From the NCBI GenBank assembly GCA_040954595.2, contig CM082597.2:7403849-7467848 (forward strand): 64,000 bases of DNA. The letters run 5' to 3'. Below, in pieces: positions 8,055-62,087 of this stretch. Position 1 is the stretch's first letter, and every line of letters starts with the position of its first letter. The stretch comes from Balanoglossus misakiensis. Lineage: Eukaryota > Animalia > Hemichordata. The notes below the pieces were generated by a model. It had not been told where the DNA came from. It searched no databases and saw only the letters and a list, made by a program, of their open reading frames with translations. The position numbers and the translations under genes are program-made.

Positions 8055-16604
<8,550 letters not shown>

Positions 16605-23081: not shown

Positions 23082-23136
<55 letters not shown>

Positions 23137-29744: not shown

Positions 29745-32700
29745 TCAAAATTTGCTAAACGAGAGAACATCAGAATCTATACCAGATTCAGCAGAAGTCT
29801 CCTCTGATAAATAGGGTAAGCCAGATATTGCAGCACCTGTAGCTTTTCTTTCAGACTTCAGCTTGCGACCTTCACGACGACCAGATTCTGACATGTATTT
29901 AGAAGTGGCAAATGGATCGTCTCCTTTTTTCAGCAGATGACATTTTTCATGTTCATCTTCCGAACTTAAAGTGGTATATGGCTCACTCAATTTGCCAGAG
30001 GAGAGAACATCAGCATCTACCCCAGATTCAGCAGAACTTTCCTCTGTAAAACAGGGTAAGTCAGACATTGTAGCACCTGCAGCTTTGGTATCATACTTCA
30101 TCTTGTGACTTTCACACAGTCCAGATTCTTTTTTAAGCACATGACTTTTTTTATGTCCACATTCTGACTTCAAAGTGGTACGTTGCTCATCAAGATTTTT
30201 AGAATTGCCAGATGAGACACCTGAACCAGCTTCTATACCAAAATCAATAGAAGTTATTTTCCCAACAAGATCCTCTGACCAAGTCATATTTCCTATCCCT
30301 TTACTTAACCTCTCTGCACCAACATCTTCAATATCATTATGACTAAGATCCAGGAATCTCAGCCAAGTCATATTTCCCATCCCTTTACTTAAACTCTCTG
30401 CACCAACATCTCCAATGTTATTATGACTAAGATCCAGGTGTCCTAGCCCATTCATATTCTTCATCCCTTTACTTAACCTCTCTGCACCAATATCTCCAAT
30501 GTTATTATGACTAAGATCCAGCTGCCACAGCCCAGTCATATTCTCCATCCCTTTACTTAAACTCTCTACCCCAACATCTCCAATGTTATTACAACTTAAA
30601 AAAAGGTGCCACAGCCGAGACATATTCCCCATCCCTTTACTTAAACTCTTTGCACCAACATCTCCAATGTTATTATGACTAAGATCCAGGTGTCTCAGCC
30701 AAGCCATATTCCCCATCCCTCTACTTAAACTCTCTGCACCAAGATCTCTAATGTTATTACGACTAAGATCCAGGTGTCTCAGCCAAGCCATATTCCCCAT
30801 CCCTCTACTTAAACTCTCTGCACCAATATCTCCAATGTTATTATGACTAAGAACCAGGTGCCTCAGCTCAGTCATATTCCCCATCCTTTTACTTAAACTC
30901 TCTGCACCAACATCTCCAATGTTATTATGACTAAGATCCAGGTGTCTCAGCCGAGTCATATTCTCCATCCCTTTACTTAAACTCTCTGCACCAACATCCC
31001 CAATGTTATTTTGACTAAGATCCAGATGTCTGAGCTCAGTCATATTCTCCATCCCTTTACTTAAACTCTTTGCACCAACATCTCCAATGTTATTATGACT
31101 AAGATCCAGGTGTCTCAGCCCAGTCATATTCTCTATCCCTTTACTTAAACTCTTTGCACCAACATCTCCAATGTTATTATGACTAAGATCCAGGTGCCAC
31201 AGCCCAGTCATATTCTCTATCCCTTTACTTAAACTCTCTGCACCAACATCTCCAATTTTATTATGACTAAGATCCAGGTGCCACAGCCCAGTCATATTCT
31301 CTATCCCTTTACTTAAACCCTCTGCCCCAACATCTCCAATGTTATTATGACTAAGATCGAGGTGTATCTGCCCAGTCATATTCTCCATCCCTTTACTTAA
31401 ACTCTCTGCACCAACATCTCCAATGTTATTATAACTAAGATCCAGGTGTCTCAGCTCAGTCATATTCCCCATCCCTTTACCGGTACTTAAACTCTCTGCA
31501 CCAACATCTCCAATGTTATTATGACTAAGATCCAGGTGTTCCATCCAACGCATATTCCTCATCCCTTTACTTAAACTCTCTGCACCAACATCTCCAATGT
31601 TATTATGACTAAGATCAAGGTGTTCCATCCAACGCATATTCTCCATCCCTTTACTTAACCTCTGTGCACCAACATCTCCAAAATGACAACCACAAAGTTT
31701 CAGAGTGCGTACAAATGAAAGAATACTCAATCCATCACAGATCTTTTCAAATTCAGCCTGACTACACTGCTTGCTTACTTCCACAATTTTACATTCTTTG
31801 ACAACTTCCTTCATGAATATCAATTTATCTAGAGTAAGACTGTCTTCATCAAAATTGACATTATGGAAGGATGTCTGCAGTTCCTGAGGAATGTGTGGTA
31901 GGATGTACTTAAGGCCTCTGATGTCATTTCCAGCAACATTGACAATTTGTTGTCGATTCTGTGGCACAATGTTCAACAAACCAACTATTCCTCTTAAACT
32001 GATACCTGTGTCACTAAAATTAACATCAGTGAGATATTCCAGTATATGCAGTTTTCCACATATGTACTTTATGCCGTCATCTCCAATGTTATTTGAACTG
32101 ACGTCTAAATGTCTCAGAGACAACAGATGCTCAAAACTATCAGCAACAACTTTAGCATTATTAGTAGTGAAACCAGACTCAGTAATAACAAAACTTTTTA
32201 AGTTCTTGAAGAAAATCAGATTTAAACATAGCAAGTTGGTAATGTCCGAAGATAAAGTTGAAACATGTATTTGTTCTACAGAGTTTCCTTTCTTCTGCAA
32301 ATTGAAAATGTCACCCACAGTTTTGAAGTGTGTAACATGGGATTTGAAATCTCCAACCTGGTTTGCAATCTGTTCACACTCTAACAACCTTCCAAGACTT
32401 TCTTCCACCCCATTATTCTCCAACAGAACATTGAATTCACCAACCAATGGTAACAATGCTTCACACCCAAGGGAACCTAACTTGTTGTTTGAGACATATA
32501 TATCCTCCAGAAATGGAAAACATTTGACAGCTCTCAGAAGTGTGTCAATAAAGGTGTATTCTAAATCATTATGTGGCAACTCCAATGTCCTTACTTTTAA
32601 TGACACAGTTTCATTTCCCATAATTTCGAAAACCTTTGTGACAAATACATCATTAAATCCAATGAAATGGAGTGATTTCAACAGAGGCAGCGATCCCAAT

Positions 32701-35700
32701 GCTTTGACAAGTGCCTGAATTGTTTCATGACCAACATCCTGAAAGTTGTCATCAACCGCTTCAATAGTCACACTTCTCAGACTGACCTCACTATGACCTT
32801 TGACAGATTTTTGTGTGTGAGCCATTAAGAGTTGATGGAATGTGATATATCTAGTGGCCACAGTCAAATCAGTTGGGTTTTTAACTTGAAATTTGACAGT
32901 GGATGATGGATTTTCAATCATTACATTCAGGTGTTTGTTGAACTTCTCTGAAAGGTCTGCCCTTTCTTTATCACTTGTCAAATTGATATTCTGAACAACA
33001 GAAGTGTTCCCTATAAAAAGGGATGCAGCTTGCAAACTTTGTGGAGAGACTCTATTTATATCATATTCTGATAGTTCTAATGTCTGGGGTTTTAATAACT
33101 GTTGTATAATGCTTGTAAACTTTTCTGGATATTTTGATTCAAGAAGACAAGACCCAAGTAGTGCAAAACAGTCATAGGTCACTGGATATTTCTTCATAAT
33201 ATAGTTTGTGAGTACTATAAAGAAGAATGTTGCATTCTCGTGAAGGATACCAGCTACATAATGTAAAGTGACTGGCATGTACTCTACCAACATCTCAATT
33301 GTATGTTGTTTCAGAAATATGTCTTTGGTTTTGCTGACATATAAAGCTACTGCATAAAAATATATATACTGACTCAGGAAGTGATAGCTATGTGTGTGTT
33401 TCTGTTGATCCGAAAGAAATCTATGGTATAAACTTTCTCCACTCTCTTGTACTAAATTATAGAAGTACTTCTCTTCTTGACAGCTATCAAACGCATGATA
33501 CAGTGTCATGCCTTTTCGACATTTAAGAAATTCTTGTTGCCCAATTTCACAGAGCCTGTCCTGCACTACATCCCAGACATTCTCTATCTCAAGTTGATGT
33601 TCCCTACAGTACATCTCTACATGATGTTTAATTGCATATTCAGTTGCTTCTGTCAAAGTTGATGGTAAAGTGTAACAATTCTCATACCAGTAAGATACAA
33701 GTGAAGGAAAGAAAAATTCTTTCAATCTTAATTCACCCACAATTGGATGAAATCTGGACTGCTGTATCAAATACTTAGCTTGGCTGTTCTCCTCTACATG
33801 ATCTAGTACATATCTCTCCCATTCATCACATGCAACAGTCCTCACCCAGGTCTTCTCAGGGATGGTGTAGACAGCAGACATATCTGATGGAAACAAAAAA
33901 TATGTACTGTTCTCTTAATCTCTTTACAATACACAGAAATATGTATTTAATAATACACAAAATACACACACAAACATTTTTTTGGCTTGTCTTCTCAAAG
34001 TGTCATTCAGCAACACAAATCTTTCAAATCAAAGTTTTATTGATACAAATTACTTACTGCATTTCTGATCATTGTCAGCAATGCAGGTAAAGTTATATCT
34101 TACTTAAATTTATGGAATTCAGCGGAAGTAAGCCAATCAAAAGGAAAATAAAGATAAAGATTTTAAAAATTATTGCTATGCTGGCAAACAGACCGGTCTA
34201 GTACGTTGATAGAAATGAATTTGTGAAACGTGTGATGCATTTATCAAAATTATGCAGATGTAAATACTCACCATGAAGTATGTGTTTGACAGTCTCAAAA
34301 CCCTCTTTGTCTATCTTCATTCTGATTCTGACAACACATCCAGCTTTCTCTGCTAGGGATCTCATCTCCGACGTTATTAAGATATCACTCAGCATTTCAT
34401 CAACTTCTCCAGCATCATATTTCTGCCAGAAATAATCACTGTCTTCCTCTGAAAGGAAAGTCAGTAAGAACCACAAAGAGCTTTGGACAACTCCATCTAA
34501 TCTTGCTTTGTATTTCTCAAAGGCTTCATCTAACTGTTCTATCAGATCCGGATCATTTCTGTCCATGATTTTCTTTATCTGAAGTTCATAAATTGCTGAT
34601 ATTTGATTTATCAAGATCTGTTTCTGCTTCATTTTCTCCCTTTCAAGTTCCATTTTCTCTCTTTCAAGTTCCATTTTCTCTCTTTCAAGTTTAATTTTCT
34701 CCCTTTCAAGCTCCATTGTTTGGTTATCTTTATTCCTTTCCACCTTCATCTTTTCAAGCTCAATCCTTTTGTGTTCTGTTTCATGGTCCATCCTTTTCTG
34801 TTCCGTTTCTAGTTCAATTTTTTTGTGTTCTGTTTCCACTCTCATCTTTTCCATCTCCATCTTCATTTTTTTTTCTTCAAATTCCAGATTTACTTCACAC
34901 TTAACAGCTATGGGTTGAATAAACAATGAAACAGAAATAATTGCCAGCTTGATGATGATTTTTGCTGCCAGATAATTGTGGCCAAAATGAATTGATCTAG
35001 ATTATTTTGCTACAAATAAACTAATGATCAAATTATATTTTATCTCCCAAATGAGTAATATAATTTCATCCTACTGAAAATAGCGATGTGTTATCAATAG
35101 AGGAATCATACAGTGTCAGTTAATGTTCATGTCAAAGCTAAGATATTTTGTGTGACATGTCTTGAGTATAGGTGACACCAACTAACACTGTAGTTTAATG
35201 ACCATTTCACCAAATAACCCGTCAGTTTTGATATTTGCAGTAAATGTCCAGGGGGTGACTGTCCTAGAAACTTGGGTGTTTGGGAAAAGTGAACACACTG
35301 CAGAAAACATAACTTACTTGGCATCAATGGCCTTTTCCGTTGTATCATTTTTGATTTATGAGTTTCACTTGTTGGTTTCTCATCTGAAACAACAGCAGAC
35401 ACTGGACTTCCTGCGAGGAGAAAGTTTTTTTTTTTAAAGTTAGTTCAGAAAAGTGCAGTACCCTTTCACTTTTTTCACAAGTCACTTCGGCATGCAGGAA
35501 AAGCTTGACATATAAATTGTTGTATATACCAGTAAGTATGAATTTCATGAAATGATGACACTCATGACTGTCTCAATTAATTTCTCCTGTTTCAATCTCA
35601 GCGAAAGTATCTGTGCTAGTTAAAAATTGGTTGTTTCAACACAGAGAGTTTATTAAGAAACATTCAATACACAAAACAGAAACTCAAAATGATAAAAATG

Positions 35701-38700
35701 TGTCAAAGTAATAAGTTTTTAAACAACTGGTCCAATCAAAGTACTTACCAAGGTTTTGTGGCTGGGGTGAGAGTGACTGGGAAGAACAGGCATATTCAAA
35801 ACTTCCTAAACCTTCATCAGTTAAAGGACTCCTTACACTATGGGCTGGTGATTTAGGACTTACCATTATCACTAGAAAACAGAAAAATAAAGTTTAATGA
35901 CTAACAGTTGCATAAAAAATCTCTTAACATAATTACTGGTAATAAAAATATGAAATTACATTATTTAAGAAAACATCTGTTTCTGTACCCATGTATTTTA
36001 ATCTTCAGGAGCCTGCAACTTATCAAATAAAGTGTTCTTACCCACGTTTTCTGGTTTGGGTGAGAGTGACTGGGAAGGCTGGCCATCTTCAACAGTTGCA
36101 AAACCTTCATGTGTTGAGGGACTCTTACCACTCTGAACTGGTGATGGGAGTGTTGGAACTGGAAGAAGAAGGAAAAGATTTTAAGGACAAAATGCCCATT
36201 AAGAACAGTTGTGATCAGATGAATGAGGTAAAGTGAAACCTGTGTATAGTGGAGGGACTTTCCTTAACTTTATTTTAAGTCAGCCTGGACTGTAAGTCAC
36301 CTGTCAACATTATTAATATTAGGTTGATAGCTTCTTTGATAATAAAAGTCAAGTGAAAAATGCTTAAACTACTTACCAAAGTTTTCCGGTTTGGGTGAGA
36401 GTGACTGGGAAGGCTGGCCATCTTTAAAAGTTGCAAAACCTTCATGGGTTGAAGGAGTCTTTCCACTCTGCAATTGTGATTGAGGTGTTGGAACTGGTAG
36501 AAAAAAAAGCACAAAAATCTAATGACTAAAATTCTTCCAACCTTACACCTATATTAATTACAAGTTTTTAAAATGCTTCACTGTCACAACATAATCATTA
36601 ACTGTTATTTTATAGAATATTTCTTCCAAAAAGAGCTACAGAAAAGTCACTTTATCATTTTTCAACTTCGCTTTCATTTTGCTGGAAAGAGGATGATGTG
36701 TTGCTTGTTAAAATCATCCAAAGTGAAATTTTCAATTCAAAAGTGTACATTTCATCAGGTTACTGCCCTTTCAGTCTAACTTGTATCTGAGACTGCACCC
36801 TTTTGTTTTGGGATTGTGTGTGGAAAAGGAAATATACTTACTTTGTGCAGGCTGTGTACTCTGAACTTCTTTGAAACAAGCTCTGAACTTTTCATGACTT
36901 TCAGTAATCTCTGTGTGACTGAGATACATTTTCTTCAAACGCGTCGCCATGGGTATTGCATGTGTTGCTCTCAACATCTTATTGATCTGTTGTGATAAAT
37001 CCCCATCAACTGAAGGGTCATACAGGAAATACTTCGCTTCATGGTCAAAGCATGTGTTCATAAATGCTGCTAAGGCAGTTCTTTCTGGAGCTAACACAGG
37101 TAGTCCTGCAGCAATGGATCGTAATCCCTCCATCCTGAATGGCTCATCAGGTGGTATAATACAGACACTACTCTGAAGTAAATCTCTGTAAATATCATCT
37201 TGAGAGCCGTATGAGGGATAAATGTTTGGTTCTATGTAGGGGCAATTTAAGTTGACTGTAAGAAAAGTCTTTGTGTTAGCCACATCAGCTTCTGGGGGAG
37301 TACGTACACACCACAATGGAACCATCTCGTGCATAGAGTTGAATGTACCAGCTGTTTTTCCAACTTCAGCAGCAAGTGTTTTATATCGTGGGGATTCCAC
37401 AGCTGTATCGGTTATCACAGTCAGGATTTGTTTCAAGTCACTTGTTTTTTGTATTTGATCCACATTGACATCAAAGAATTCTTTCTCTGGTCTTGGAAGA
37501 TACAATTCATGTCTTACAGGAACTTCAGTTGTTTGGTAGAGTTTCTTGTAATGTTCAAAGACATCTGGTCCAACAGAGAAAACTGCAGATGCCTCCTCAG
37601 CAAATCTGATGTGTTTGCCTTGTACTTCAGCTGATGGGATGGTGTGATTGATGAGGATAATCTTAGCATCTTTGAAATATCGTTTCCTCAAAACATTTGC
37701 AACCAGGAGCTTTGCTGAAGGCTTGACATGTTCCACAATGTATTTCACATTTTGTAACTCTGTGAGGGTTGTGAAGAATGTCTCTGGAGAAAGAACCCAA
37801 TCTGGCTTCGGTGTGTCATCCTTGTATCTCTCAATCACATCCTCTTGTATTCTTGGAAGTATCAACTCAACTCCACAATCAGCTGCATCTTTCCTTTCTG
37901 CATCACTTGCCTCCAAAACAACACACCATGTTTTACGTTTTCTGTCTTCAGCTACACTGCTGGCAAGTTGACAGTTGAGGGCAGATACAGTGTCCTTCAC
38001 ACGATTCCACTTTTCAGCCAGGAATATGATGGTCGTTTTGAGGTCCTTATCTGAAAAAAGAAGACACAAGTCCAAAATGCCATAATAATGCAAATACCAA
38101 GACGACACATGCAGCAGTTCTAAAGTTGCATATCACAAAGCTTAAAAACATTACAATAGGACACCTATGAGAACTTTGTGTAAATTTTCTTGAGCAGGTT
38201 GTAGTCGGCTGAAAAATGGTTTCAGATATTTTCAGCATAGGAAAATTGTAGCATGAGGTGAGCAAGACAAGTGCTGACTCAGCATTGTTCGCAAGGTTTT
38301 AGAGCATCTCATTGAAAAAAGTTGCATAGGAACACCCAATTTTTCTCTATATTTGTATTAAAAAGTCATTGATATACAATATATTTTAAAAACAAGAAAA
38401 TTAGAATACACTAAAATATGGAAAATTAAGTATGCGGCGGCCATCTTGGGAAAAACCGTATAATTACACATTTCCGGCCATCAGATTTTGGTAGATTTTT
38501 TATATGTTATTAAGGAGTTTCAATACTACAGAAAACCATTGAGAAACCTTTTGGTGCAATTTTGGGGTTAAGGCCCTTTTATCTCATAAATGCAGTCACC
38601 TAGTGTCCTCTAAGCAGGAGATGCAAGACGATATTCTCTGTATTACTTGTAATATTGATTGGTCCAAAGCCAATGATGAGTATAATGGTACATATAAACC

Positions 38701-40799
38701 AGTATATAACTGTCAATACTTGCACCTGGGAATCACTGAATGGCTGGCTATTATTGATTGGTTGAAGAACTCCAGTATATTTTGTAAAAAAAAATCTTAC
38801 CTTGCTCATTAGTTTCCTTCCCTACTGAATCAGTTTGTTTCCTAGGTGATAGTGACTGCAGTCTTGGCATCAAGGGATACAGTGCACGATGTAAATCATG
38901 TCTGTCTATGTGGTGTTGTACACTTGTGGTTTCACCTTCTGGATCTTTCATCATTGTCGTCATCTCTATTTGTGTTGCAGCTGAACTAACTGCACTGCTA
39001 GCAGCAATATCACCGACATATGAAATACCTGACGTATGTGAAAAATAAACATTGACGGGTAAATTACTTGTGTGTGTACAATTCCTTGTAAAAATAAATT
39101 TCAATTACTTTAAGCACTTAAAGTTAGTGTTCTACTGCTGCTTCAAATGTCCGAACAATTTTCTTTTCTCAAAACTATGACCAATGACTAATTAAATATT
39201 CACAGGACATGGCACGTCTAATCATTGGCCCCTATCACAATACAGAGTTCCAGCCCTGTAGGTGCTATGGTTTTCCAGAACCACCAGGCAAAAAATATCG
39301 GAAGAATGAGACGGAATATAAATAATTAAAGCTGCAAGCAGCATTGTCGGGCCCAAGCGCTGATCTGGAATTATAAATGCACATTATGAATGAGAAAAAA
39401 CCAAATGCTCTATCGCGTATTTTATCTCATAAAGTAACAAGGACGTATGTATCTTTGGTGCTGATATAGAGTAAAGTAGGTCAAAGGTCACTTGACGTCA
39501 CCCAAAATTTGGGAACAAAACTTTGATCCCATACTGGTCCATGTCAAACAAAAACCAAAACTCTAGCCCTATTTGTTCGCCTGTAATTAGGTATGCACAT
39601 ATTTAATGAGGTAAACAGGTGTCACAGATGACCCCAAAAATTGGTCCCATCCTGCCAAATGACAAGGCTGTATCAGCTCTGGATGCCGAGATATGCGAAA
39701 GTAGGTCAAAGGTCACCTGAGGTCACCCAACATTTGGGCAAAACAATTTGACCCCATACTAGTCCATATCCAACAAAAACCAAAACTCTAGCTCTATTGG
39801 TTCACCTGTAATTAGGTATGCACATAATTAATAAGGCCCTAGAATTTCCAACAATACTAATAATATCATTCTGGTCAAACATCTAGAGCGATTACAGTTT
39901 TTGCATAATACGAAATGTATCTTTGGTAGATGCTGTAAGTGCTTACAATGAGATTCTTTTGTGGATACTTGAGTCTTGGAATGAGTGGCTGTCACTGCTG
40001 GAGTCTTGGGACGAGTTGATGTCATTGGCTGCACTTTTTCAGTAGGACTTGGATGCTGTGAGGGAGATGGTAACTGTGTTCCTCCTGAGGTCCTCTCAGT
40101 TGAGAATGTTGGCAAACTCTCTTCACTTCTGTCACTTATCTCTTGAGGGCTATCTTTCACCCTAGATACTGCTTCTCTTGTCACATCCTCATATGGATAA
40201 TCTTTATCAAACTTTTTCTCATATCGAACTTCTACGTGCTTCGCTAACATGTAAAGTCCGGCAGTTTTCAACAGCTGAATAAGTGTCTCAGGTTTGTCCC
40301 TTGATAAATGTCCATATTTTAACAACTTTTCAAACAAAACATATGCACGTTTCTCTCTCAAAATTTCTTCCTTCACAACTGTAGGTATTGACGGTTTCAA
40401 TATAGCACCCAGTCCATCAACCAATCTAATGAGGTCATCTTTAACAGAGCAGAGAAAAAGTTACTGTACCGTAAACATTATTCTTGAAATAAATCTCTTG
40501 AAATACAGGAGATCACTGTCTTAAATTTCAAAGTGATAATGGGATGATCATGTTTTGTCTTTTATGACAAGTTTGAATCAAATCAGCTCTGCTGTATGTG
40601 AGATGACTGTGGATGCAACTACTGCATCATTATAGACATTCCCTGAACAACCAGGATGTGCACACTCATGGGTAGACATCCATGAGTGTCCCAGAGCACC
40701 ACTCACTTAGGGATAAAAACATTCATATGTACACTCACCATTTCCGATGTCATCTGCCAGCCTTATAAGATATTCCCTAAACCAATCAAAATATGCCAT
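29745..40799 (-). CDS. NLR-like protein A: DED - GT-B glycosyltransferase-like - S/P repeats - coiled coil - TRADD-N-like - NACHT helical region (no P-loop seen) - RI-type LRRs (10 coding exons, ~2404 aa)
   Basis: Minus-strand exons 40799-40739, 40438-39947, 39028-38801, 38050-36842, 36493-36377, 36158-36042, 35871-35749, 35410-35318, 34907-34272 and 33883-29745; all GT-AG phase 1, total 7215 nt in frame. N-term MAYFDWFREYLIRLADDIGNDDLIRLVDGL...LFEKLLKYGHLSRDKPETLIQLLKTAG (DED-like); AVFSVGP...EPFRMEGLRSIAAGLPVL (GT4-like); SSLWFLLTFLSEEDSDYFWQKYDAGEVDEMLSDILITSEM (TRADD-N-like); LPSTLTE...LCEIG...YHFLSQYIYFYAVALYV (HD1/WHD-like); LDLSHNNIGDVGAESLS repeats. Confidence 0.85.
30280..31690 (-). 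repeat. 84-bp coding tandem array, ~17 x 28-aa LRR (NLR A)
   Basis: Unit HLDLSHNNIGDVGAESLSKGMENMTGL(R/W); 16 full units plus a leading partial; one unit has a 6-bp insertion (STGKG). Confidence 0.97.
39326..39830 (-). mobile_element. Interspersed repeat fragment in NLR A intron (reverse complement of the 62950-63605 family)
   Basis: gctgcaagcagc..gggcccaagc terminus and two aggtcaaaggtcac..gtcacccaa..tttggg units; the reverse complements occur at 63080-63605. Confidence 0.7.
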
Positions 40800-41797: not shown

Positions 41798-41957
41798 TAC
41801 CAGTATATTGAAACTTTGCATAAAACATTTTTCAAAGGCATTTTCTTTGACTATGAGTTTTGCGTGATATATGACTGTGGTATGTGACGAATATATCAGT
41901 CACGTGTCGTGTCTCGACCAATAAAATAGCGTGATTTACACCATCAATATACTGGTA
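41798..41957. mobile_element. Short MITE-like repeat, copy of 495-648
   Basis: taccagtatattga...tcaatatactggta inverted termini. Confidence 0.75.
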
Positions 41958-46245: not shown

Positions 46246-46315
46246 TTAACAAATAATCGCCTTCAACATCCGATGCCTGATATTCGTGTATCTACTTAAA
46301 TTTCCTGCCACACAG

Positions 46316-50927: not shown

Positions 50928-53900
50928 CTAAGACTTCTTTTCGTGTCCAAATTTAGACCTAGAAGAGGTATAAAATGACTTCCTTTGTCTTGTATGTTGT
51001 CTAGATAAGAGAACATCAACATCTTCATCAGATTCAGCAGAACTCTCCTCTGAAAAATGGGGTGAGTATGTAGATTTGGTATCATACTTTTGTATGTGAC
51101 TTTCACGGTGACCTGATTCTTTTTTTAGCGAATGACTTTTTGAATGTCTAAATTCAGACATAGAAGGGGTATGTGGCTCATACAACATTTTAGATTTGCC
51201 AGAAGAGACACCTGACGCTTCTGCACCAAACTCAATAGAAGTTCTTTTCCCTTTCCTTAAACTCTTTGCACCAACATCTCCAATGTTATTATGACTAAGA
51301 TCCAGGTGTCTCCGCCGATGCTTTTTCCCCATTCCTTTACTTAAACTCTTTGCACCAACATCTCCAATGTTATTATGACTAAGATCCAGGTGTCTCAGCC
51401 AAATCATATTCCTCATCCCTTTACTTAAACTCTTTGCACCAACATCTCCAATGTTATTATGACTAAGATCCAGGTGCCAAAGCCCAGTCATATTCTCCAT
51501 CCCTTTACTTAAACTCTCTGCACCAAAATCTCCAATATTATTATGACTAAGATCCAGGTGTCTCAGCATAGTCATATTCTCCATCCCTTTACTTAAACTC
51601 TCTGCACCAAAATCTCCAATATTATTTTGACTAAGATCCAGGTGTCTCAGCCGAGTCATATACTCCATCCCTTTACTTAAACTCTCTGCACCAAAATCTC
51701 CAATATTATTATGACTAAGATCCAGGTGTCTCAGCATAGTCATATTCCCCATCCCTTTACTTAAACTCTCTGCACCAACATCTCCAATGTTATTATGACT
51801 AAGATCCAGGTGCCACAGCCCAGTCATATTCTCCATCCCTTTACTTAAACTCTCTGCACCAAAATCTCCAATGTTATTATGACTAAGATCCAGGTGCCAC
51901 AGCCCAGTCATATTCTCCATCCCTTTACTTAAACTCTCTGCACCAAAATCTCCAATATTATTATGACTAAGATCCAGGTATATCAGCCCAGTCATATTCC
52001 CCATCCCTTTACTTAAACTCTCTGCACCAACATCTCCAATGTTATTATGACTAAGATCCAGGTGCCACAGCCCAGTCATATTCTCCATCCCTTTACTTAA
52101 ACTCTCTGCACCAAAATCTCCAATATTATTATGACTAAGATCCAGGTGCCACAGCCCAGTCATATTCTCCATCCCTTTACTTAAACTCTCTGCACCAAAA
52201 TCTCCAATATTATTATGACTAAGATCCAGGTGCCACAGCCCAGTCATATTCTCCATCCCTTTACTTAAACTCTCTGCACCAAAATCTCCAATATTATTAT
52301 GACTAAGATCCAGGTGTCTCAGCCGAGTCATATTCTCCATCCCTTTACTTAAACTCTCTGCACCAAAATCTCCAATTTTATTATGACTAAGATCCAGGTG
52401 TCTCAGCCATGTCATATTCCCCATTCCTTTACTTAAACTCTGTGCACCAACATCTCCAATTTTATTGTGACTAAGATACAGGTGTCTCAGCCCAGTCATA
52501 TTCTCCATCCCTTTACTTAAACTCTCTGCACCAACATCTCCAATGTTATTATGACTTAGATCCAGGTGTCTCAGCCCAGTCATATTCTCCATCCCTTTAC
52601 TTAAACTCTCTGCACCAACATCTCCAAAATGACAACCACAAAGTTTCAGAGTGTGTACAAATGAAAGAATACTTAATCCTTTACAGAAGTCTTCAAATTC
52701 AGCCTGACTGCAATGCTTACTTACTTCCACAATTTTCTTTTCTTTGACAACTTCCTTGATGAATATTAATTTATCTATAGTAAGACTGTCTTCATCAAAA
52801 TTGACATTATGGAAAGATGTCTGCAGTTTCTCTGGAATGTGTGTTAGGATGTACTTAAGGCCTCTGATGTCATTTCCAGCAAAATTGACAATTTGTTGTT
52901 GATTCTGTGGCACAATGTTGAACAAATCAACTATTCCTCTTAAACTGATACCTGTGTTACTAAAATTAACATCAGTGAGATATTCCAGTATATGCAGTTT
53001 TCCGCAAATGTACATTATGCCATCATCTCCTATGTTATTTGAACTGACGTCTAAATATCTCAGAGACAACAGATGCTCAAAACTATCAGCAACAACTTTA
53101 GCATTATTAGTAATGAAACCAGACTCAGTAATAACAAAATGTTTTAAGTTCTTGAAGAACATCAGATTTAAACATAGCAAGTTGGTGATGTCAGAAGATA
53201 AACTTGAAGCATGTATTTGTTCTACAGAGTTTCCTTTCTTCTGCAAATTGAAAATGTCACCCACAGTTTTGAAGTGACACTTCACATGTGATTTGAAATC
53301 TCCAACCTGGTTTGCAATCTGTTCACACTCTAACAACCTTTCAAGACTTTCTTCCACCCCATTATTCTCCAACAGCACATTTAATTCATCAACCAATGGT
53401 AACAATGCTACACACCCACGGGAACCTAACTTGTTGTTTGAGACATCTATATCCTTCAGAAATGGAAAATATTTGACAGCTCTCAGAAGTACACCAATAA
53501 AGGTGTATTCCAAATCATTATGTGGCAACTCCAACTTCCTTACTTTTAATGACACATTTTCATTTCCCAACATTTCGAAAACCTTTGTGATAAATGCTTC
53601 ATTAAATCCAGTGAAATGGAGTGATTTCAACAGAGGCAGTGATCCCAATGCTTTGACCAGTGCCTGAATTGTTTCATGACCAACATCCTGAAAGTTGTCA
53701 TCAACCGCTTCAATAGTCACACTTCTCAGACTGACCTCACTATGACCTTTGACAGATTTTTGTGTGTGAGCCCGTAAGAGTTGATGGAATGTGATATATC
53801 TAGTAACCACAGTCAACTCAGTTGAGTTTTTAACTTGAAATTTGACAGTTGATGATGGATTTTCAATCATTACATTCAGGTGTTTGTTGAACTCTTCTGA

Positions 53901-56900
53901 AAAGTCTGCCCTTTCTTTATCACTTGTCAAAATGATATTCTGAACAACAGAAGTGTTCCCTATAAAAAGGGATGCAGCTTGCAAACGTTGTGGAGAGACT
54001 CTATTTATATCATATTCTGATAGTTCTAATGTCTGGGGTTTTAATAACTGTTGTATAATGCTTGTAAACTTTTCTGGAAATTTCGATTCAAGAATACAAG
54101 ACCCAAGTAGTGCAAAACAATCATAGGTCACTGGATATTTCTTTATAATATTGCTTGTGAGTATTTCGAAGAATGTTGCATTCTCGTGAAGGATACCAGC
54201 TACATAATGTAAAGTGACTGGCATGAACTCTACCAACATCTCAATTGTATGTTGTTTCAGAAATATGTCTTTGGTTTTGCTGACATATAAAGCCACTGCA
54301 TAAAAGTATATATACCGACTCAGGAAGTGATAGCTATGTGCGTGTTTCTGTTGATCCGAAAGAAATCTATGGAAACTTTCTCCACTCTCTTGTACTAAAT
54401 TAAAGAAGTACTTCTCTTCATGACAGCTATCAAACGCATGATACAGTGTCATGCCTTTCTTACATTTAAGAAATTCTTGTAGCCCAATTTCACAGAGCCT
54501 GTCCTGCACTACATCCCAGACATTCTCTGTCTCAAGTTGATGTTCCCTACAGTACATCTCTACATGATGTTTAATTGCATATTCAGTTGCCTCTGTCAAA
54601 GTTGATGGTAAAGTGTAACAATTCTCATACCAGTAAGATACAAGAGAAGGAAAGAAAAAATCTTGTGATCTTAATTCACCCACAATTGGATGAAATCTGG
54701 ACTGCTGTATCAAATACTTAGCTTGGCTGTTCTCTTCAACATGATCTAGTACATATCTCTCCCATTCATCGTATGCAACAGTTCTCACCCAGGTCTTCTC
54801 AGGGATGGTGTAGACAGCAGACATATCTGATAGAAACAAAAAAAATGTCTACATGTAATTGTGCTCAATACATGTATATATTCAACACACATAATGCACA
54901 CAAAGATGTTGAATGGCCAGCCTTCTCAAAGTGTCATTCATCATTATATTACCATGGCCTGTGTGTCTCATTTTTATTGGTCAAGATGAACGACGTCACT
55001 GACCACAAATACTCAGTAATGTTTTGTTTACATGCCCGTAAATCTGAATAGTAATATTAATAAACAGTTCAGTGAATATAACATTTTGCATAACACAAGT
55101 TCCGGGGCCCGTAGTCTTTTGCGTGGGGCATTTTTGTAAATTTTGACAGTTTTCTTGAGTTTGTTGGTAATATAATGGAAATAACTGACTCCGCCCTGAC
55201 CATTAACGTTTGTTTATGAGCTCGGGCTCGAGGAAAGCCAAAATTCATGGGCTCGGAATCCTCGCCCATGAATTTTTGGCTTTCCCCTGTGGAAAAGTAC
55301 AGGTATGAAGCATTATGACTATTGTGAAGACTTAAATTAAATACTCACCATGAAGTATGTGTTTGACAGTCTCAAACTCCTTTTCATCTATCTTCATTCT
55401 GATTCTGACAACACATCCAGCTTTCTCTGCTAGGGATCTCATCTCGGATGTTATTAAGATATCACTCAGCATTTCATCAACTTCTCCAGCATCATATTTC
55501 TGCCAGAAATAATCACTGTCTTCCTCTGAAAGGAAACTTAGTAAGAACCACAAAGAACCGAGTCCAACTCCATCTAATCTTGCTTTATGTTGCTCATAGG
55601 CTTTATCCAACTGTTCTATCAGATCTGGGTCATCTCTGTCCACGATTTTCTTTATCTGAAGTTCATAAAGTACTGTTATATGATCTATCAACACCTGTTT
55701 CTGCTTCATTTTCTCCCTTTCAAGTTTTATTTTCTCCCTGTCAAGCTCCATTGCTCTGTTTTCTTTCTCCATTTCGATCTTCGTCTTTTCTGTTTCAAGC
55801 TCAATCCTTTTCTGTTCTGTTTCATGGTCCATCCTTTTCTGTTCTGTTTCAAGCTCCATTTTCTTGTGTTCTGTTTCCACTCTCATCTTTTCTATCTCCA
55901 TCTTCGTCTTTTCTGTTTCAAGCTTAATCCTTTTGTGTTCTGTTTCATGGTCCATTCTTTTCTGTTCCGTATCAAGCTCCATCCTTTTCTGTTCTGTTTC
56001 AAGCTCCATTTTCTTGTGTTCTGTTTCCACTCTCATCTTTTCCATTTTCATTTCTGTCTTCATCTTTTTTTCTTCAAATTCCAGATTTACTTCACACTTA
56101 ACAGCTATGGGTTGAATAAACAATTAAACAGAAATAATTGCCAGCTAGATGATGATTTTTGCTGCCAGACAATTGTGGCCAAAATGAATTGATCTAGATT
56201 ATTTTGCTACATATAAACTAATGATCAAATTATATTTTATCTCCCAAATGAGTAAGATAATTTCATCCTACTGAAAATAGTGATGTGTTATCAATAGAGG
56301 AATCATACAGTGTCAGTTAATGTTCATGTCAAAGCTAAGATATTTTGTGTGACATATCTTGAGTATAGGTGACACCAACTAACACTGTAGTTTAATGACC
56401 ATTTCACTAAATCACACGTCAGTTTTGATATTTGGGGTAAATGTCCAGGGGGTGACTGTCCTAGAAACTTGGGTGTTTGGGAGAAGTGAACACACTGCAG
56501 GAAACATAACTTACTTGGCATCAATGGCCTTTTCCGTTGTATCATTTTTGATTTATGAGTTTCACTTGGTGGTTTCTCATCTGAAACAACGGCAGTCACT
56601 GGACTTCCTGGGAGAAGAAAGTTTTTAAAAAAAAAGTTAGTTCAGAAAAGTGCCCAGTACCCTTTCACTTTTTTCACAAGTCACATCAGCATGCAGATAA
56701 AGCTTGACATATAAATTGTTGTATATATCAGTAAGTATGAGTTTCATGAAATGATGACACTCATGACTGTCTCAATGAATTTCTCCTGTTTCAATCCCAG
56801 CAAAAGTATATGTGCTAGTTACAAATTGGTTGTTTCAACACAGAGAGTTTATTAAGAAACATTCGAGACATAAAACAGAAACTCAAAATGTAAAAAAGCC

Positions 56901-59900
56901 AATGTTATTTCCCTTTTTAATGATAAAAATGTGTCAAAGTAATAAGTTTTTAAACAACTGGTCCAATCAAAGTAATTACCAAGGTTTTGTGGCTGGGGTG
57001 AGAGTGACTGGGAAGAACAGGCATATTCAAAACCTCCTACACCTTCATCAGTTAAAGGACTTCTTACATTATGGGCTGGTAATTTGGCACTTACCATTAT
57101 CACTAGAAAACAGAAAAATAAAGTTTAATGACTAACAGTTGCATTAAAAATCTCTTAACATAATTACTGGTAAGAAAAATATGAAATTACATTATTTAAC
57201 AAAACATCTGTTTCTGTACCCATGTTTTTTAATCTTCAGGAGCCTGCAACTTATCAAATAAAGTGTTCTTACCCAGGTTTTCTGGTTTGGGTGAGAGTGA
57301 CTGGGAAGGCTGGCCATCTTCAAAAGTTGCAGCACCTTCATGGGTTGAAGGACTCTTTCCACTCTGAACTGGTGATGGGAGTGTTGGAACTGGAAGAAGA
57401 ATAAGGAAAAGATTTTAAGGCTAAAATTCCCATTAAGAAGTCTTGTGATCAGATGAATGAGGTAAAGTCAAACCTGTGTATAGTAGCCGGTCAAGCGACT
57501 TTCCTTAACTTTATTTGAAGTCAGTCAGGACTGTATGACTTAAGTCACCTGTCAACATTATCAATATTAGGTTGGTAGCTTCTTTGATAATAAAAGTCAA
57601 GTGAAAAGTTAAAGCTTAAACTCTACTTACCCAGGTTTTCTGGTTTGGTTGAGAGTGACTGGGAAGGCTGGCCATCTTCAAAAGTTGCAACACCTTCATG
57701 GGTTGAAGGAGTCTTCCCACTCTGTGCTGGTGATTGAGGTGTTGGAACTGGAAGAAGAAGGAAATGATTTTAAGGACAAAACTCCCATTAAGAAGTCTTG
57801 TAATCAGATGAATGAGGTAAAGTCAAACCTGTATATAGTGGAGGGACTTTCCTTAACTTTATTTGAAGTCAGTCTAGACTGTAAGTCACCTGTCAACATT
57901 ATTAATATTAGGTTGATAGCTTCTTGATAATAAAAGTCAAGTAAAAATCTAAAGCTTAAACTACTAGTTTTTACCCAGGTTTTCTGGTTTGGGTGAGAGT
58001 GACTGGGAAGGCTGGCCATCTTTAAAAGTTGCAGCACCTTCATGGGTTGAGGGACTCTTTCCACTCTGAACTGGTGATGGGAGTGTTGGAACTGGAAGAA
58101 GAAGGAAACGATTTTAAGGCTAAAATTCCCATTAAGAAAAGTTGTGATCAGATGAATGAGGTAAAGTCAAACCTGTGTATAGTGGAGGGACTTTCTTTAA
58201 CTTTATTTGAAGTCAGTCTGGACTGTAAGTCACCTATCAACATTATTAATATTAGGTTGATAGCTTCTTGATAATAAAAGTCAAGTAAAAATCTAAAGCT
58301 TAAACTACTACATGTAGTTTTTACCCTGGTTTTCCGGTTTGGGTGAGAGTGACTGGGAAGGCTGGCCATCTTCAAAAGTTGCAGCACCTTCATGGGTTGA
58401 AGGACTCTTTCCACTCTGAACTGGTGATGGGAGTGTTGGAACTGGAATAAGAAGGGAACGATTTTAAGGCTAAAATTCCCATTAAGAAAAGTTGTGATCA
58501 GATGAATGAGGTAAAGTCAAACCTGTGTATAGTGGAGGGACTTTCCTTAACTTTATTTGAAGTCAGTCTGGACTGTAAGTCACCTATCAACATTATTAAC
58601 ATTAGGTTGATAGCTTCTTTGATAATAAAAGTCAAGTGAAAAATGCTTAAACTACTTACCAAAGTTTTCTGGTTTGGGTGAGAGTAACTGGGAAGGCTGG
58701 CCATCTTTAAAAGTTGCAAAACCTTCATGGGTTGAAGGAGTCTTTCCACTCTGCAATTGTGATTGAGGTGTTGGAACTGGTAGAAAAAAAGCACAAAAAT
58801 CTAATGACTAAAATTCTTCCAACCTTACACCTATATTAATTACAAGTTGTTAAAATGCTTCACTGTCACAAAATAATCATTAACTGTAATAATTATATAT
58901 TTCTTCCAAAAAAGTGCAACAGAATAGTCACTTCATCATTTTTCAACTTCGCTTTCATTTTGCTGCAAACAGGATGATGTGTTGCTTGTTAAAATCATCT
59001 GAAGTGTAATTTTCAATTCAAAAATATACATTCATCAGGTTACATACTGCCCTTTCAGTCTAACTTGTATCTGAGACTGCACCTTTTGCTTTGGGATTGT
59101 GTTTGGAAAAGGAAATATACTTACTTTGTGCAGGCTGTGTACTCTGAACTTCTTTGAAACAAGCTCTGAACTTTTCATGACTGTCAGAAATCTCTGCGTG
59201 ACTGAGATACATATTCTTCAAACGTGTCGCCATGGGTATTGCATGTGTTGCTCTCAACATCTTATTGATCTGTTCTGATAAATCCCCATCAACAGAAGGG
59301 TCATACAGGAAATATTTTGCTTCATGGTCAAAGCATGTGTTCATAAATGCTGCTAAGGCAGTTCTTTCTGGAGCTAACACAGGTAGTCCTGCAGCAATGG
59401 ATCGTAATCCCTCCATCCTGAATGGCTCATCAGGTGGTATAATACAGACATTACTCTGACGTAAATCTCTGTAAATATCATCTTGAGAGCCGTATGAGGG
59501 ATAAATGTTTGGTTCTATGTGCCGACAATTTAAGTTGTTTGTAAGAAAGGTCTTTGTGTTAGCAACATCAGCTTCTGGGGGAGTACGTACACACCACAAT
59601 GGAACCGTCACGTGCATAGAGTTGAATGTACCAGCTGTTTTTCCAACTTCGGCAGCAAGTGTTTTATAGCGTGGGGATTCCACAGCTGTATCAGTTATCA
59701 CAGTCAGGATTTGTTTTAAGTCACTTGTTTTTTCTATTTGATCCACATTGACATCAAAGAATTCTTTCTCTGGTCTTGGCAGATACAATTCATGTCTTAC
59801 AGGAACTTCGGTTGTTTGGTACAGTTTCTTGTAATGTTCAAAGACATCTGGTCCAACAGAGAAAACTGCAGATGCCTCCTCAGCAAATCTGTTGTGTTTG

Positions 59901-60319
59901 CCTTGTACTTCAACTGATGGGATGGTGTGATTGATGAGTATAATCTTAGCATCTTTGAAATATCGTTTCCTCAAAACATTTGCAACCAAGAGCTTTGCTG
60001 AAGGCTTGACATGTTCCACAATGTATTTCACATTTTGTAACTCTGTGAGATTTGTGAAGAATGTCTCTGGAGAAAGAACCCAATCTGGCTTCGGTGTGTC
60101 ATTCTTGTATCTCTCAATCACATCCTCTTGTATTCTTGGAAGTATCAACTCAACTGCACAATCAGCAGCATCTTTCCTTTCTGCATCACTTGCCTCCAAA
60201 ACAACACAACATGTTTTACGTTTTCTGTCTTCAGCTACACAGCTTGCAAGTTGACAGTTGAGGGCAGATACAGTGTCCTTCACACGATTCCACTTTTCAG
60301 CCAAGAATATGGTAGTCAT
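50928..60319 (-). CDS. NLR-like protein B: GT-B glycosyltransferase-like - S/P repeats - coiled coil - TRADD-N-like - NACHT helical region (no P-loop seen) - RI-type LRRs (~2216 aa from the in-exon ATG; 5' end uncertain)
   Basis: Exons 60333(ATG 60319)-59125, 58776-58660, 58441-58325, 58091-57975, 57747-57631, 57389-57273, 57102-56980, 56607-56515, 56104-55349 and 54826-50928; GT-AG, phase 1, in frame. Highly similar to NLR A. No DED exons seen in 60334-64000. Confidence 0.82.
51250..52630 (-). repeat. 84-bp coding tandem array, ~16 x 28-aa LRR (NLR B)
   Basis: Unit HLDLSHNNIGD(F/V)GAESLSKGMENMTGL(W/R). Confidence 0.97.
57273..58776 (-). repeat. ~345-bp tandem array of intron plus 117-nt exon units (5 exons)
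   Basis: Repeated exon xPTPxxxxxSGKxPSTHEGxATFxDGQPSQSLSPKPENx with repeated flanking intron. Confidence 0.9.
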
Positions 60320-62087
60320 TTTGAAGTCTTTATCTGAAAACAGATCAGAATACAATTGCCATACATAAGACATATATTCAACTGACTCATATTATGTGTA
60401 ATTTGTTTCTATGACAAAAATAGCGTCAAGGACACTGTGGTCCAATTTGAGGATTATGGGTAAATAGTGATATACCAGAATAAAAATTACAGGTGACATT
60501 GCAAGCAGATATGATCTAATCACATAGAGATATGGAATGTAAAAAAAATAACAAGGAACATGCCCAATAAACTGCTAGAAAAAAATATTTTTGACCAAAA
60601 AATTGTCTGTACAAACACATATGACAAGCAACTTTATTCAGTCAGCCCTGGAACAGACAGACAGACGATGAAGATGCTCACTGACCTGCCACTGGTAATT
60701 AAGATAATTGTTTGTGGTATAAGACAAAATATCAACATTTTGAATTACCCATGATTTGTTTCCATTATTATTTATAATTTTAAATAATCCCCTCATATTA
60801 ATTTACAGCTCAAATTTTAAAGAAATCAGCTATATAATTTCCGAAAAAGATAATTTTTTTATCAAAATTAGAAAATATGCCCCCAAAATACAAAATATTG
60901 CCCCAACAAATCATTGATACGTTATTCATTATGTGTATTGTATTAAAATCATCAAGAGGACACACCCAGGAACCTTCAAATCAAATTTCAAAGCAATGGG
61001 GTAGAGGGTTCTGAAAAGCAGTTTTGACCAAAAATGGCAAAAATTACCCCAAAAATATACTATTGAATTTACCATGATTAGAAAAAATTGCAAGAAAGCA
61101 CCTCTGCACACCCTCAAATGTTTTTTTTTTTCAATTTGGAAAGTTATTTTAGAAAAGAAGATTTGTTTTATTAAAAATGAGGAAAATGACAAAAAAATCA
61201 CCAAATTAGCCATTTTCTGATATCACCAAAAGGTGAAAAAAATCTATGTAAGGTCTCAATAAAGTAAATACAAACCAATTTGCAAAGCAATCTGACCAGT
61301 AGTTCTTGAGTTGTGTTTTGACCAAATTCACATTTTTCCAGCTAATTTGCATATTTTTTTGCAATGATAACTTCATTTGCACAAATTCCCATCTACAGCA
61401 CGGCCACATATCAAGGTGAAACACGCAGCGGTTTTCAAGTTTTTGATGTGGTCGGACATATAGACATACATCCATATATTATACAGATGCAACCGATCCC
61501 GTAAGGTCCCATTGTATATATATACATATAATTACAAACCAAATGGGACCTAAAAACGTGAAAATAAAATTTCGCGTGAAATGATTTTCGGAGATAACGA
61601 TGCAGTCAGTGAAATACGAGAACGGGGAAATTTATCCTCGCGTAACAGTTGCCTCTTTTGATATCACAAAAATTTCTTGTCGCAAAAATAACCTGCTGTA
61701 CAATACCTTCCCGGACAAGCGGTGTTGCGAATGGCTATCTGAAGTTGACTTCTTGTCCATAACTCAATAATTAATCAACAATAACACATTTCCCTTTCCA
61801 TAGTAAAAAAAAAGTGACTCATGTAAAATATACTGGGGTAGTAAGGGACCGTTCAGTTTTTATGGGGGGGGGGATGTCTCCCACACCAACCCCTTCATTC
61901 TTCGCCACATTTGATTTGTGGCTGGTTTGTCTAGTGTACCAGGGCAGAGTACTTGCCACCACCACCCCCCTCCCAATGCTAACTTTGAGTGGAGTGGCAA
62001 CAGTAAAATTGGTCCTCCCAAACATTGTATTAATTGGGGGCACAAGCGCCCTCAGGCGGCTTGTGCCCCCATTGTTATTGTTGGAAT

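What the first reader, a model, noticed from the sequence alone, without database searches (positions are those of the whole stretch)
29745..60333. Tandem NLR-like receptors that keep the NACHT helical domains and LRRs but have no nucleotide-binding P-loop
Seen: in both genes the last exon begins DMSAVYTIPEKTWVRTVA.DEWERYVLDHVEENSQAKYLIQQSRFHPIVGELR...LVSYWYENCYTLPSTLTEATE...LCEIG...YHFLS.YIYFYAVALYV. This reads like the post-NBD part of an NLR (HD1, winged helix with a degenerate FxHxxxQEF motif, HD2) followed by RI-type LRRs. No GxxGxGK[S/T] Walker A or Walker B motif is visible in any assembled exon, and the introns preceding this exon are short (388 and 522 bp). Established: NLR/STAND activation depends on ADP/ATP exchange in the NBD, and GT-B domains fused to intact NACHT-LRR are known in cnidarian NLRs. 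Inference: here a coiled coil plus TRADD-N-like domain sits where the ATPase should be. Both ~4-kb terminal ORFs remain open, suggesting a nucleotide-independent sensor, decoy or scaffold class of invertebrate NLR.
Basis: partly seen in the sequence, partly recalled or inferred. Interest (0 to 1): 0.82.

Follow-up and report, generated by a model that had tools for sequence, protein, structure and literature searches.

The report
Immune receptors missing their ATP switch
Two neighbouring genes, likely of an acorn worm, encode proteins predicted to keep the helical core and leucine-rich repeats of NLR immune receptors while the whole ATP-binding switch domain is missing, a layout shared by many acorn worm and amphioxus gene models that would have to sense or relay signals without nucleotide.

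Summary
Confirmed. Two tandem minus-strand genes splice into stop-free proteins (A 2404 aa, B about 2220 aa): [DED]-GT4-linker-coiled coil-TRADD-N-like-helical module-LRR. The helical module is predicted to fold like NLR HD1-WHD-HD2. It aligns to NLRP3 374-743 (Z 15.0) from exactly the HD1 boundary, and the top 11 of 48,161 chains are NLR entries. No NBD fits in front of it: TRADD-N ends about 20 residues before HD1, the introns (388, 522 bp) are closed in all frames, and the nucleotide-contacting Pro and His are replaced. The same short junction occurs in 15 of 15 hemichordate database proteins holding both domains; amphioxus relatives also lack a Walker A. So this is a family, not a local accident. 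A versus B shows purifying selection on HD1 (dN/dS 0.13). TRADD-N-LRR proteins of this type are catalogued (PMC8195603), but I found no report that the gap holds a decapitated NACHT. These are not NLRs by definition. They most likely act as nucleotide-independent sensor/adaptors (about 50%). Expression, function and the number of NBD losses are untested.

The parts
39947..40799 (-). Gene A exons 1-2 (40799-40739, 40438-39947): start codon, DED-like death-fold domain, Ser/Thr/Pro linker
   Evidence: Splice model; Pfam DED E 0.004, below cut-off; DED above cut-off in homologues P0011-P0013
38801..39028 (-). Gene A exon 3, linker
   Evidence: GT-AG, phase 1, open frame
36842..38050 (-). Gene A exon 4, GT4 glycosyltransferase-fold domain; second Glu of the recalled EX7E motif absent
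   Evidence: PF20706 E 3.4e-23; motif check; dN/dS 0.28
35318..36493 (-). Gene A small exons 5-8 (117, 117, 123, 93 bp), Ser/Pro-rich linker
34272..34907 (-). Gene A exon 9: coiled coil plus TRADD-N-like domain (about 34571-34272)
   Evidence: ESM Atlas 0.92 to PF20694 clusters; no direct Pfam hit; profile links it to amphioxus proteins with PF20694 hits
33884..34271 (-). Gene A junction intron, 388 bp, where an NBD would have to be encoded
   Evidence: 7-10 stops per frame, longest open stretch 39 codons
33084..33883 (-). Gene A last exon, first part: about 17-aa linker, then predicted HD1-WHD-HD2
   Evidence: AlphaFold2 pLDDT 84.7; Z 15.0 to NLRP3 374-743, Z 14.9 to NOD2; Z 15.9 to NLRC4 301-614
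29745..33083 (-). Gene A last exon, rest: irregular LRRs, about 16.6 regular 28-aa RI-type LRRs (31681-30282), charged tail, stop
59125..60333 (-). Gene B GT4 exon with in-frame ATG at 60319; no DED exons found in the window
   Evidence: PF20706 E 4.5e-23
56515..58776 (-). Gene B small exons (five of 117 bp, then 123 and 93 bp), Ser/Pro-rich linker
55349..56104 (-). Gene B coiled coil plus TRADD-N-like exon
54827..55348 (-). Gene B junction intron, 522 bp
   Evidence: 6-12 stops per frame, longest open stretch 91 codons; 198 of 350 aligned bases identical to A's intron
50928..54826 (-). Gene B last exon: predicted HD1-WHD-HD2 (about 54776-54035), irregular LRRs, about 16.4 regular 28-aa LRRs (52627-51248), tail
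   Evidence: module 93% identical to A

Best explanation
These are two tandem copies of an NLR-derived gene that lacks the entire nucleotide-binding domain but keeps predicted HD1-WHD-HD2 and LRR domains, and they likely work as nucleotide-independent cytosolic immune sensor/adaptors. Shown: open spliced frames, domain order, no room for an NBD, the same short TRADD-N-to-HD1 junction in relatives, purifying selection on GT4, TRADD-N and HD1. Predicted: the HD1-WHD-HD2 fold. Inferred: an ancestor of the type GT4/coiled coil-TRADD-N-STAND-WHD-HD2-LRR lost its NBD; HD1-WHD-HD2 plus LRR then serve as a ligand-binding platform, as these subdomains do in NAIPs; binding or clustering, possibly through the coiled coil, would bring the N-terminal DED, TRADD-N or GT4 modules to partners such as DED-caspases or an intact helper NLR, with no ADP/ATP switch and no AAA+ ring of its own. 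I put the NBD-less architecture at about 0.92 and this mechanism at about 0.5.
For: Fold: pLDDT 84.7, pTM 0.84. The top 11 of 48,161 chains are NLR entries (Z 15.0-8.2; first other row 7.3); model 17-361 aligns to NLRP3 374-743, rmsd 4.7, 267 residues; HD1 of NLRP3 starts at 373 (10.1101/2021.07.22.453353, passage). A profile of the module aligns to HD1-WHD of two intact fish NLRs. Junction model of P. flava P0008: alpha/beta domain 1-101, low-confidence linker 102-113, NLR match from 116-118. TRADD-N-to-HD1 gap 15-24 aa in 15 of 15 hemichordate database proteins with both domains (14 P. flava, 1 G. talaboti), 20 in A and B. A Walker A pattern upstream of HD1 in 1 of 43 hemichordate and amphioxus proteins (P0030, residue 10), against a hit in the intact fish control. 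The PhhCW Pro is kept in 0 of 20 and the WHD His in 0 of 18 hemichordate homologues that reach the column; both are replaced in A and B (roles from PMC7583971 section 21). dN/dS A vs B: GT4 0.28 (0.15-0.49), TRADD-N 0.28 (0.13-0.56), HD1 0.13 (0.02-0.37), module 0.39 (0.21-0.85). N-termini vary among relatives (DED, GT4, CARD-TIR, Death), as in immune receptor expansions. HD1, WHD and HD2 confer NAIP ligand specificity (PMC7583971, passage).
Against: No transcript was seen: the junction rests on splice signals and on computed RefSeq models, which could share a prediction error. No ligand, partner or phenotype is known. WHD and HD2 alone show no significant constraint (dN/dS 0.52, CI 0.18-1.76; 1.00, CI 0.24-7.73), nor do the LRRs (0.61, CI 0.39-1.04; 0.89, CI 0.56-1.45). 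The exposed beta-strand positions of 29 repeats do not show pN above pS (ratio 0.38; all positions 0.82); only the loop before the strand does (0.209 vs 0.047, picked after the fact, pairs not independent). The fold tool warns that helical models can reach Z about 13 by chance. NAIP, NLRP6 and others lack the WHD His and still bind ATP, so that residue alone proves little. Several family members are truncated or LRR-less models. Sequence support for NACHT kinship is weak at database scale (E 0.55).
Confidence: 0.5

Rival explanations
1. Decoy or dominant-negative regulator: the NBD-less proteins bind intact NLRs, their activators or pathogen effectors through HD2-LRR and death-fold domains and damp or guard signalling instead of starting it.
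For: HD2 and LRR are the autoinhibitory surfaces of NLRC4 (PMC7583971 section 21). Intact TRADD-N-STAND proteins exist in hemichordates and amphioxus (PMC8195603 supplement). In B. floridae a STAND-less model (BRAFLDRAFT_77771, 2945 aa, the length of P0040) is numbered next to a STAND-bearing one (77770). GT4 lacks the second EX7E Glu in 7 of 7 proteins (motif recalled), as a pseudo-enzyme might.
Against: No intact NLR lies in this window. At least 17 P. flava paralogues with varied N-termini look more like a receptor repertoire than one inhibitor.
Confidence: 0.22
2. Non-immune structural scaffold, like the oocyte NLRPs of the subcortical maternal complex and cytoplasmic lattice.
For: Lattice and SCMC entries score as high as immune NLRs in the fold searches. 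Long coiled coil and long regular LRR.
Against: Those matches only reflect the shared NLR fold. Death-fold, TIR, GT4 and TRADD-N partners are immune or apoptotic modules (PMC8195603). Tandem duplication, variable repeat number and N-terminal swapping fit immune genes.
Confidence: 0.1
3. GT4 is the active output: an LRR-targeted glycosyltransferase that modifies invader molecules, the NLR remnant being only a rigid cap for the LRR.
For: GT4 is the best conserved domain between A and B (94% identity, dN/dS 0.28). First EX7E Glu and an N-domain His are kept in 7 of 7. Kaur et al. propose this role for GT4.
Against: Second EX7E Glu absent in 7 of 7. Many family members have no GT4 (P0011-P0013, P0022-P0026), so it cannot explain the family.
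Confidence: 0.1
4. Artefact or decay: a hidden or trans-spliced NBD exon exists, or the genes are young pseudogenes.
For: No RNA evidence was obtained. This genome has very small exons according to unreviewed notes. My NBD homology screens were insensitive: the same fish queries also missed the helical module.
Against: A's intron (388 bp) is shorter than the roughly 460 bp needed for an NBD (154 aa in NLRP3). The two junction introns are only 198 of 350 identical, against 396 of 410 and 320 of 343 for neighbouring introns, so nothing conserved hides there. The same junction occurs in two other genera. 0 internal stops in 2404 and 2221 codons, and dN/dS below 1 in three domains.
Confidence: 0.08

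Closest known systems
DEDD2-clade TRADD-N proteins with GT4 and LRRs (Kaur et al. 2021, PMC8195603)
   Same: GT4 before TRADD-N and LRRs after it, in hemichordates, cephalochordates and cnidarians (section 11). The supplement lists STAND-less rows such as GT4+TRADD-N+TM+LRRs (Saccoglossus), CARD+TIR+TRADD-N+LRRs (B. floridae) and GT4+TRADD-N+helical-region+LRRs (Stylophora).
   Different: The stretch between TRADD-N and the LRRs is left blank, 'TM' or 'helical-region' there; 0 rows read TRADD-N+wHTH in the stored part of the file (file cut when stored, file 13 not searched). Here that stretch is identified as HD1-WHD-HD2 without NBD. I could not fetch those accessions to check that they are the same family.
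Animal NLRs (NLRP3, NOD2, NLRC4, NAIP) and coral GT4-TRADD-N-STAND-wHTH-LRR proteins
   Same: HD1-WHD-HD2-LRR order and predicted fold; death-fold N-terminus in A; Acropora proteins have the same layout with a STAND domain in place.
   Different: No NBD at all (Walker A, Walker B, sensor 1); PhhCW Pro and WHD His replaced; 10-16% identity to solved NLRs.
P-loop-degenerate plant NLRs (rice Pb1, Arabidopsis variants; PMC3478704, passages) and inactive bacterial iSTANDs (PMC8195603)
   Same: Immune STAND proteins that work, or are proposed to work, without a functional P-loop.
   Different: Those are described as having eroded motifs or lacking the P-loop motif; here the whole domain is gone up to the HD1 boundary, and in animals.
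Amphioxus death-fold-plus-LRR genes without NACHT ('DLR', Huang et al. 2008; recalled, paper not held)
   Same: As I recall them: death-fold domain and LRRs, no NACHT. The Branchiostoma Death-group proteins found here fit that description.
   Different: As far as I recall they were not reported to keep HD1-WHD-HD2. I could not check the text.

Membership tests
NLR (NACHT-LRR) | NBD with Walker A, Walker B and sensor 1 | tested here: not met
   No motif in six frames of the gene strand or in the spliced proteins; no PF05729; about 20 aa between TRADD-N and HD1; no such fold in the homologue's junction model
NLR (NACHT-LRR) | HD1-WHD-HD2 helical module | tested here: met
   Predicted structure: Z 15.0 NLRP3 374-743, Z 15.9 NLRC4 301-614; profile alignment to intact fish NLRs. 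Pfam NOD2_WH and NLRC4_HD2 give no hit
NLR (NACHT-LRR) | PhhCW Pro in HD1 and FxHxxxQE His in WHD (nucleotide contacts) | tested here: not met
   Glu/Asp and Ser in A and B; 0 of 20 and 0 of 18 hemichordate homologues keep them
NLR (NACHT-LRR) | C-terminal RI-type LRRs | tested here: met
   LRR_6 E 1e-106 and 1e-101; 84-bp repeats x16.6 and x16.4
NLR (NACHT-LRR) | N-terminal effector or death-fold domain | tested here: inconclusive
   A: DED hit below cut-off, stronger in homologues; B: none in the window
NLR (NACHT-LRR) | Nucleotide-dependent oligomerisation and signalling | not testable with these tools
   Needs biochemistry
DEDD2-clade TRADD-N / GT4 / LRR proteins | TRADD-like N domain (PF20694) | tested here: met
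   ESM Atlas top three clusters 0.91-0.92, PF20694 in 45-58% of members; profile links to P0040 and P0043, which pass the Pfam cut-off; no direct Pfam hit on the window's own exon
DEDD2-clade TRADD-N / GT4 / LRR proteins | GT4-conflict domain before TRADD-N, LRRs after it | tested here: met
   PF20706 E 3e-23 and 5e-23, above cut-off; exon order
DEDD2-clade TRADD-N / GT4 / LRR proteins | Placement in the DEDD2 clade on a TRADD-N tree | not tested
   No TRADD-N tree was built
Active GT4 glycosyltransferase | EX7E motif (recalled) and donor-binding residues | tested here: inconclusive
   First Glu kept in 7 of 7, second absent in 7 of 7; no solved GT4 reached by sequence search for a residue-level alignment

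The most novel reading that the evidence does not exclude
An ancient class of switchless NLR-derived receptors arose once, before acorn worms and amphioxus parted (perhaps earlier, if the coral GT4-TRADD-N-'helical region'-LRR proteins belong), expanded into dozens of genes per lineage, and detects microbes through HD1-WHD-HD2-LRR with no ATPase. Every NACHT-based survey has missed it, so invertebrate receptor repertoires are undercounted and nucleotide exchange is not essential to NLR-type sensing in animals.
Probability: 0.3. Interest if true: 0.83.

Novelty: new variant of a known kind. Interest (0 to 1): 0.66.

Why it matters
The NBD is treated as the defining and indispensable part of an NLR, and the invertebrate surveys whose methods I read count genes by the NACHT Pfam model. 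A maintained, expanded family with the NBD removed at the HD1 boundary would be invisible to them. It is also a natural deletion experiment: it asks what HD1-WHD-HD2-LRR can do alone, which bears on where NLRs bind ligands and whether sensors need their own switch. The module is about 265 aa with a confident model, so structure and pull-down tests are direct.

Tried and rejected
No genome is held for the window, so a genome-wide search for NBD-bearing paralogues was impossible. No RNA holder was listed; this says nothing about expression. Pfam and PDB sequence searches did not recognise the module; the whole-alignment PDB search returned only LRR matches. tblastn and a two-sequence HMM of fish NBDs found nothing in the window (best E 0.39 and 0.11), but the matching post-NBD controls also missed the module, so these negatives carry no weight. 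No close intact NLR was found: 0 of 21 hits among 1.84 billion representatives had a NACHT Pfam hit; the profile search gave 17 hits without PF05729 and 2 fish NLRs at E about 0.55, a search limited to 467-2000 aa and to shared words. The tree (34 rows, 13 partial rows left out) groups 19 hemichordate rows at 99/99 but leaves the three NBD-less groups unresolved on long branches with only two fish outgroups, so the number of losses was not tested. ESM Atlas hits for the module were NACHT/WHD/HD2 clusters but under 0.9, a lead only. A complex prediction of TRADD-N with the module gave no answer (score 0.00). TRADD-N did not appear in the fold lists of the 684-aa model, which NLR and LRR matches filled. 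Positive selection on the LRR concave face was not shown. Ten paper searches listed nothing on NBD-less HD1-WHD-HD2-LRR proteins in animals; most subscription journals are not held, and two look-ups failed. Earlier scan findings held no look-alike.
Full report
Observation. The window has two long minus-strand ORFs, 29745-33914 and 50928-54848, in a tandem duplication of about 25.2-38.1 kb and 46.2-60.3 kb. Ten-exon models give stop-free proteins of 2404 aa (A) and 2221 aa (B), all introns GT-AG and phase 1. The order is DED-like (A only), GT4 (PF20706, E about 1e-23), Ser/Pro-rich small exons, coiled coil, TRADD-N-like domain, then one large exon with about 265 aa that Pfam does not recognise, irregular LRRs and about 16 regular 28-aa LRRs. 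No G-x4-GK[ST] occurs on the minus strand and no NACHT-type Walker B pattern in any frame. The junction introns are 388 and 522 bp with 6-12 stops per frame.

What the unrecognised part is. AlphaFold2 on the first 409 aa of A's last exon, with 23 sequences, gave pLDDT 84.7 and pTM 0.84. Foldseek's listed matches are NLRs or NLRP-containing complexes, best E 4e-5. In an independent alignment to 48,161 chains the top 11 rows are NLR entries (Z 15.0-8.2) and the next is 7.3; model residues 17-361 match NLRP3 374-743 (rmsd 4.7, 267 aligned, 13% identity) and 18-409 match NOD2 429-846; NLRC4 301-614 gives Z 15.9. In NLRP3 the NBD is 219-372, HD1 373-434, WHD 435-541, HD2 542-651 (10.1101/2021.07.22.453353, passages). 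The match therefore starts at the first residues of HD1. The tool warns that helical models can reach Z about 13 by chance; one family filling the top rows, with a shared start point, argues against that. A profile of the module aligns to HD1-WHD of two intact fish NLRs, weakly at database scale (E 0.55). The domain in front is TRADD-N-like: ESM Atlas 0.92 to PF20694 clusters, no direct Pfam hit.

Is the NBD really absent? TRADD-N ends about 20 residues before HD1 in A and B. A's intron is shorter than an NBD's coding length. The two junction introns are 198 of 350 identical, against 396 of 410 and 320 of 343 for neighbouring introns. A model of P. flava P0008 across the junction shows a small alpha/beta domain (1-101), a low-confidence linker (102-113) and the NLR match from 116-118. 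The adenine-contacting PhhCW Pro and the WHD His (PMC7583971 section 21) are Glu/Asp and Ser here; some ATP-binding NLRs lack the His too. My homology screens for an NBD remnant failed their own controls and are not used. No RNA run was listed, so the junction is not shown by transcripts.

Family. Searches returned 17 Ptychodera flava, 2 Glandiceps talaboti and 1 partial Saccoglossus kowalevskii protein, and over 20 Branchiostoma proteins. In 15 of 15 hemichordate proteins with both domains the gap is 15-24 aa; the other 5 lack a TRADD-N hit, and 4 of them start at or just before HD1 and say nothing about an NBD, the Saccoglossus one among them. Three amphioxus proteins have TRADD-N about 40 aa before HD1 (two of them behind CARD-TIR), keep the Pro and lose the His; a larger Death-domain group has low-complexity linkers before HD1, loses the Pro and keeps the His. 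A Walker A pattern lies upstream of HD1 in 1 of these 43 proteins, at residue 10. None of 21 hits among 1.84 billion representatives had a NACHT hit. A tree of the module (34 rows, 13 partial rows left out) puts 19 hemichordate rows together (99/99) and the window's genes with six P. flava proteins (98/95), so the organism is likely an acorn worm; the three NBD-less groups are unresolved, and two fish outgroups cannot count the losses. The different patterns of residue decay fit either one old loss or several. All database members are computed gene models.

Selection. Between A and B, dN/dS is 0.28 for GT4, 0.28 for TRADD-N, 0.13 for HD1 and 0.39 for the module, each with a bootstrap interval below 1. 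WHD (0.52), HD2 (1.00), proximal LRRs (0.61) and regular LRRs (0.89) are not distinguishable from 1. Among 29 regular repeats the variation concentrates just before and at the start of the beta-strand (Arg/Trp, Gly/Trp/Arg), but exposed strand positions do not show pN above pS. GT4 keeps the first Glu of the recalled EX7E motif in 7 of 7 proteins and lacks the second in 7 of 7, so its activity is open.

Mechanism. Without an NBD there is no ADP/ATP switch and no AAA+ ring; this follows from established NLR biology. What remains is the part that sets ligand specificity in NAIPs (PMC7583971, passage) plus a long LRR, tethered to interaction modules. I therefore favour a nucleotide-independent sensor/adaptor that signals through DED, TRADD-N or GT4 when clustered or when bound to an intact helper (0.5). 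Rivals: decoy or inhibitor of intact NLRs (0.22), non-immune scaffold (0.1), LRR-targeted glycosyltransferase (0.1), artefact or decay (0.08). None was tested functionally.

Known versus new. Kaur et al. (PMC8195603; passages, section 11, searches in the supplements) describe GT4-TRADD-N-LRR proteins in hemichordates, amphioxus and cnidarians. Their table lists both STAND-bearing forms (Acropora GT4+TRADD-N+STAND+wHTH+helical+LRR; Saccoglossus coiled coil+TRADD-N+STAND+wHTH) and STAND-less forms whose middle is blank, 'TM' or 'helical-region'; no row reads TRADD-N+wHTH in the stored text (file 4 was cut, file 13 not searched). So TRADD-N was probably already there and the NBD was lost behind it. 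P-loop-degenerate plant NLRs (PMC3478704, passages) and bacterial iSTANDs are functional analogues. I recall amphioxus 'DLR' genes (death fold plus LRR, no NACHT) from Huang et al. 2008, which is not held. Other papers seen as passages only: PMC3879445, PMC2575513, PMC8662601, PMC3196919, PMC2858798, PMC11508797, 10.1101/2025.07.21.665930; PMC5752844 as abstract. Ten searches showed no description of an NBD-less HD1-WHD-HD2-LRR family in animals; the library lacks most subscription journals, and bioRxiv supplements are closed.

Verdict. Real and conserved; an NLR-derived variant, not an NLR by definition. The protein class is catalogued, but its decapitated NACHT appears unrecognised. Interest 0.66.

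Noticed in passing
window 9656-15209 (+) and about 18500-23470 (+): Two tandem multi-exon esterase genes; the exon at 9656-9868 matches fungal PHB depolymerase (PDB 2d80, E 8e-7), and similar exons recur in the second copy.
   Followed up: partly
window 34907-33884 versus 56104-54827: The coiled-coil/TRADD-N exon (dS 0.35) and the junction intron (57% identical) are far more diverged between A and B than the flanks (dS about 0.09; introns 93-97%), suggesting gene conversion or a mosaic history.
   Followed up: partly
window 58776-57273 and 36493-36042: A 117-bp phase 1-1 exon with its intron (period about 344 bp) is repeated five times in B and twice in A, changing the length of the Ser/Pro-rich linker.
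   Followed up: partly
window 60333-61805 versus 38050-42212: B lacks A's three 5' exons (DED) although flanks further upstream still match; B has a Met where A has Lys-Thr, and DED-less P. flava and Glandiceps models start with Met at the same place.
   Followed up: partly
window 31681-30282 and 52627-51248: The 84-bp LRR units are about 89-93% alike within each gene and sit in one exon, a sign of recent internal expansion or homogenisation.
   Followed up: partly
window 1836-2198 (+) and 3440-3721 (+): Two ORFs that read like exons of a small signal-peptide or membrane-anchored protein; no Pfam hit.
   Followed up: no
window 4824-5208, 8903-9192, 25766-26104, 45895-47106: A dispersed, roughly 350-bp element that matches itself in reverse (MITE-like), at several places.
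   Followed up: no
window 62058-62291: 50-bp tandem repeat, 4.7 copies.
   Followed up: no
proteins P0029, P0032, P0041 (Branchiostoma): Some amphioxus family members carry PF02135 (recalled as the TAZ zinc finger of CBP/p300) in front of the NBD-less module.
   Followed up: no
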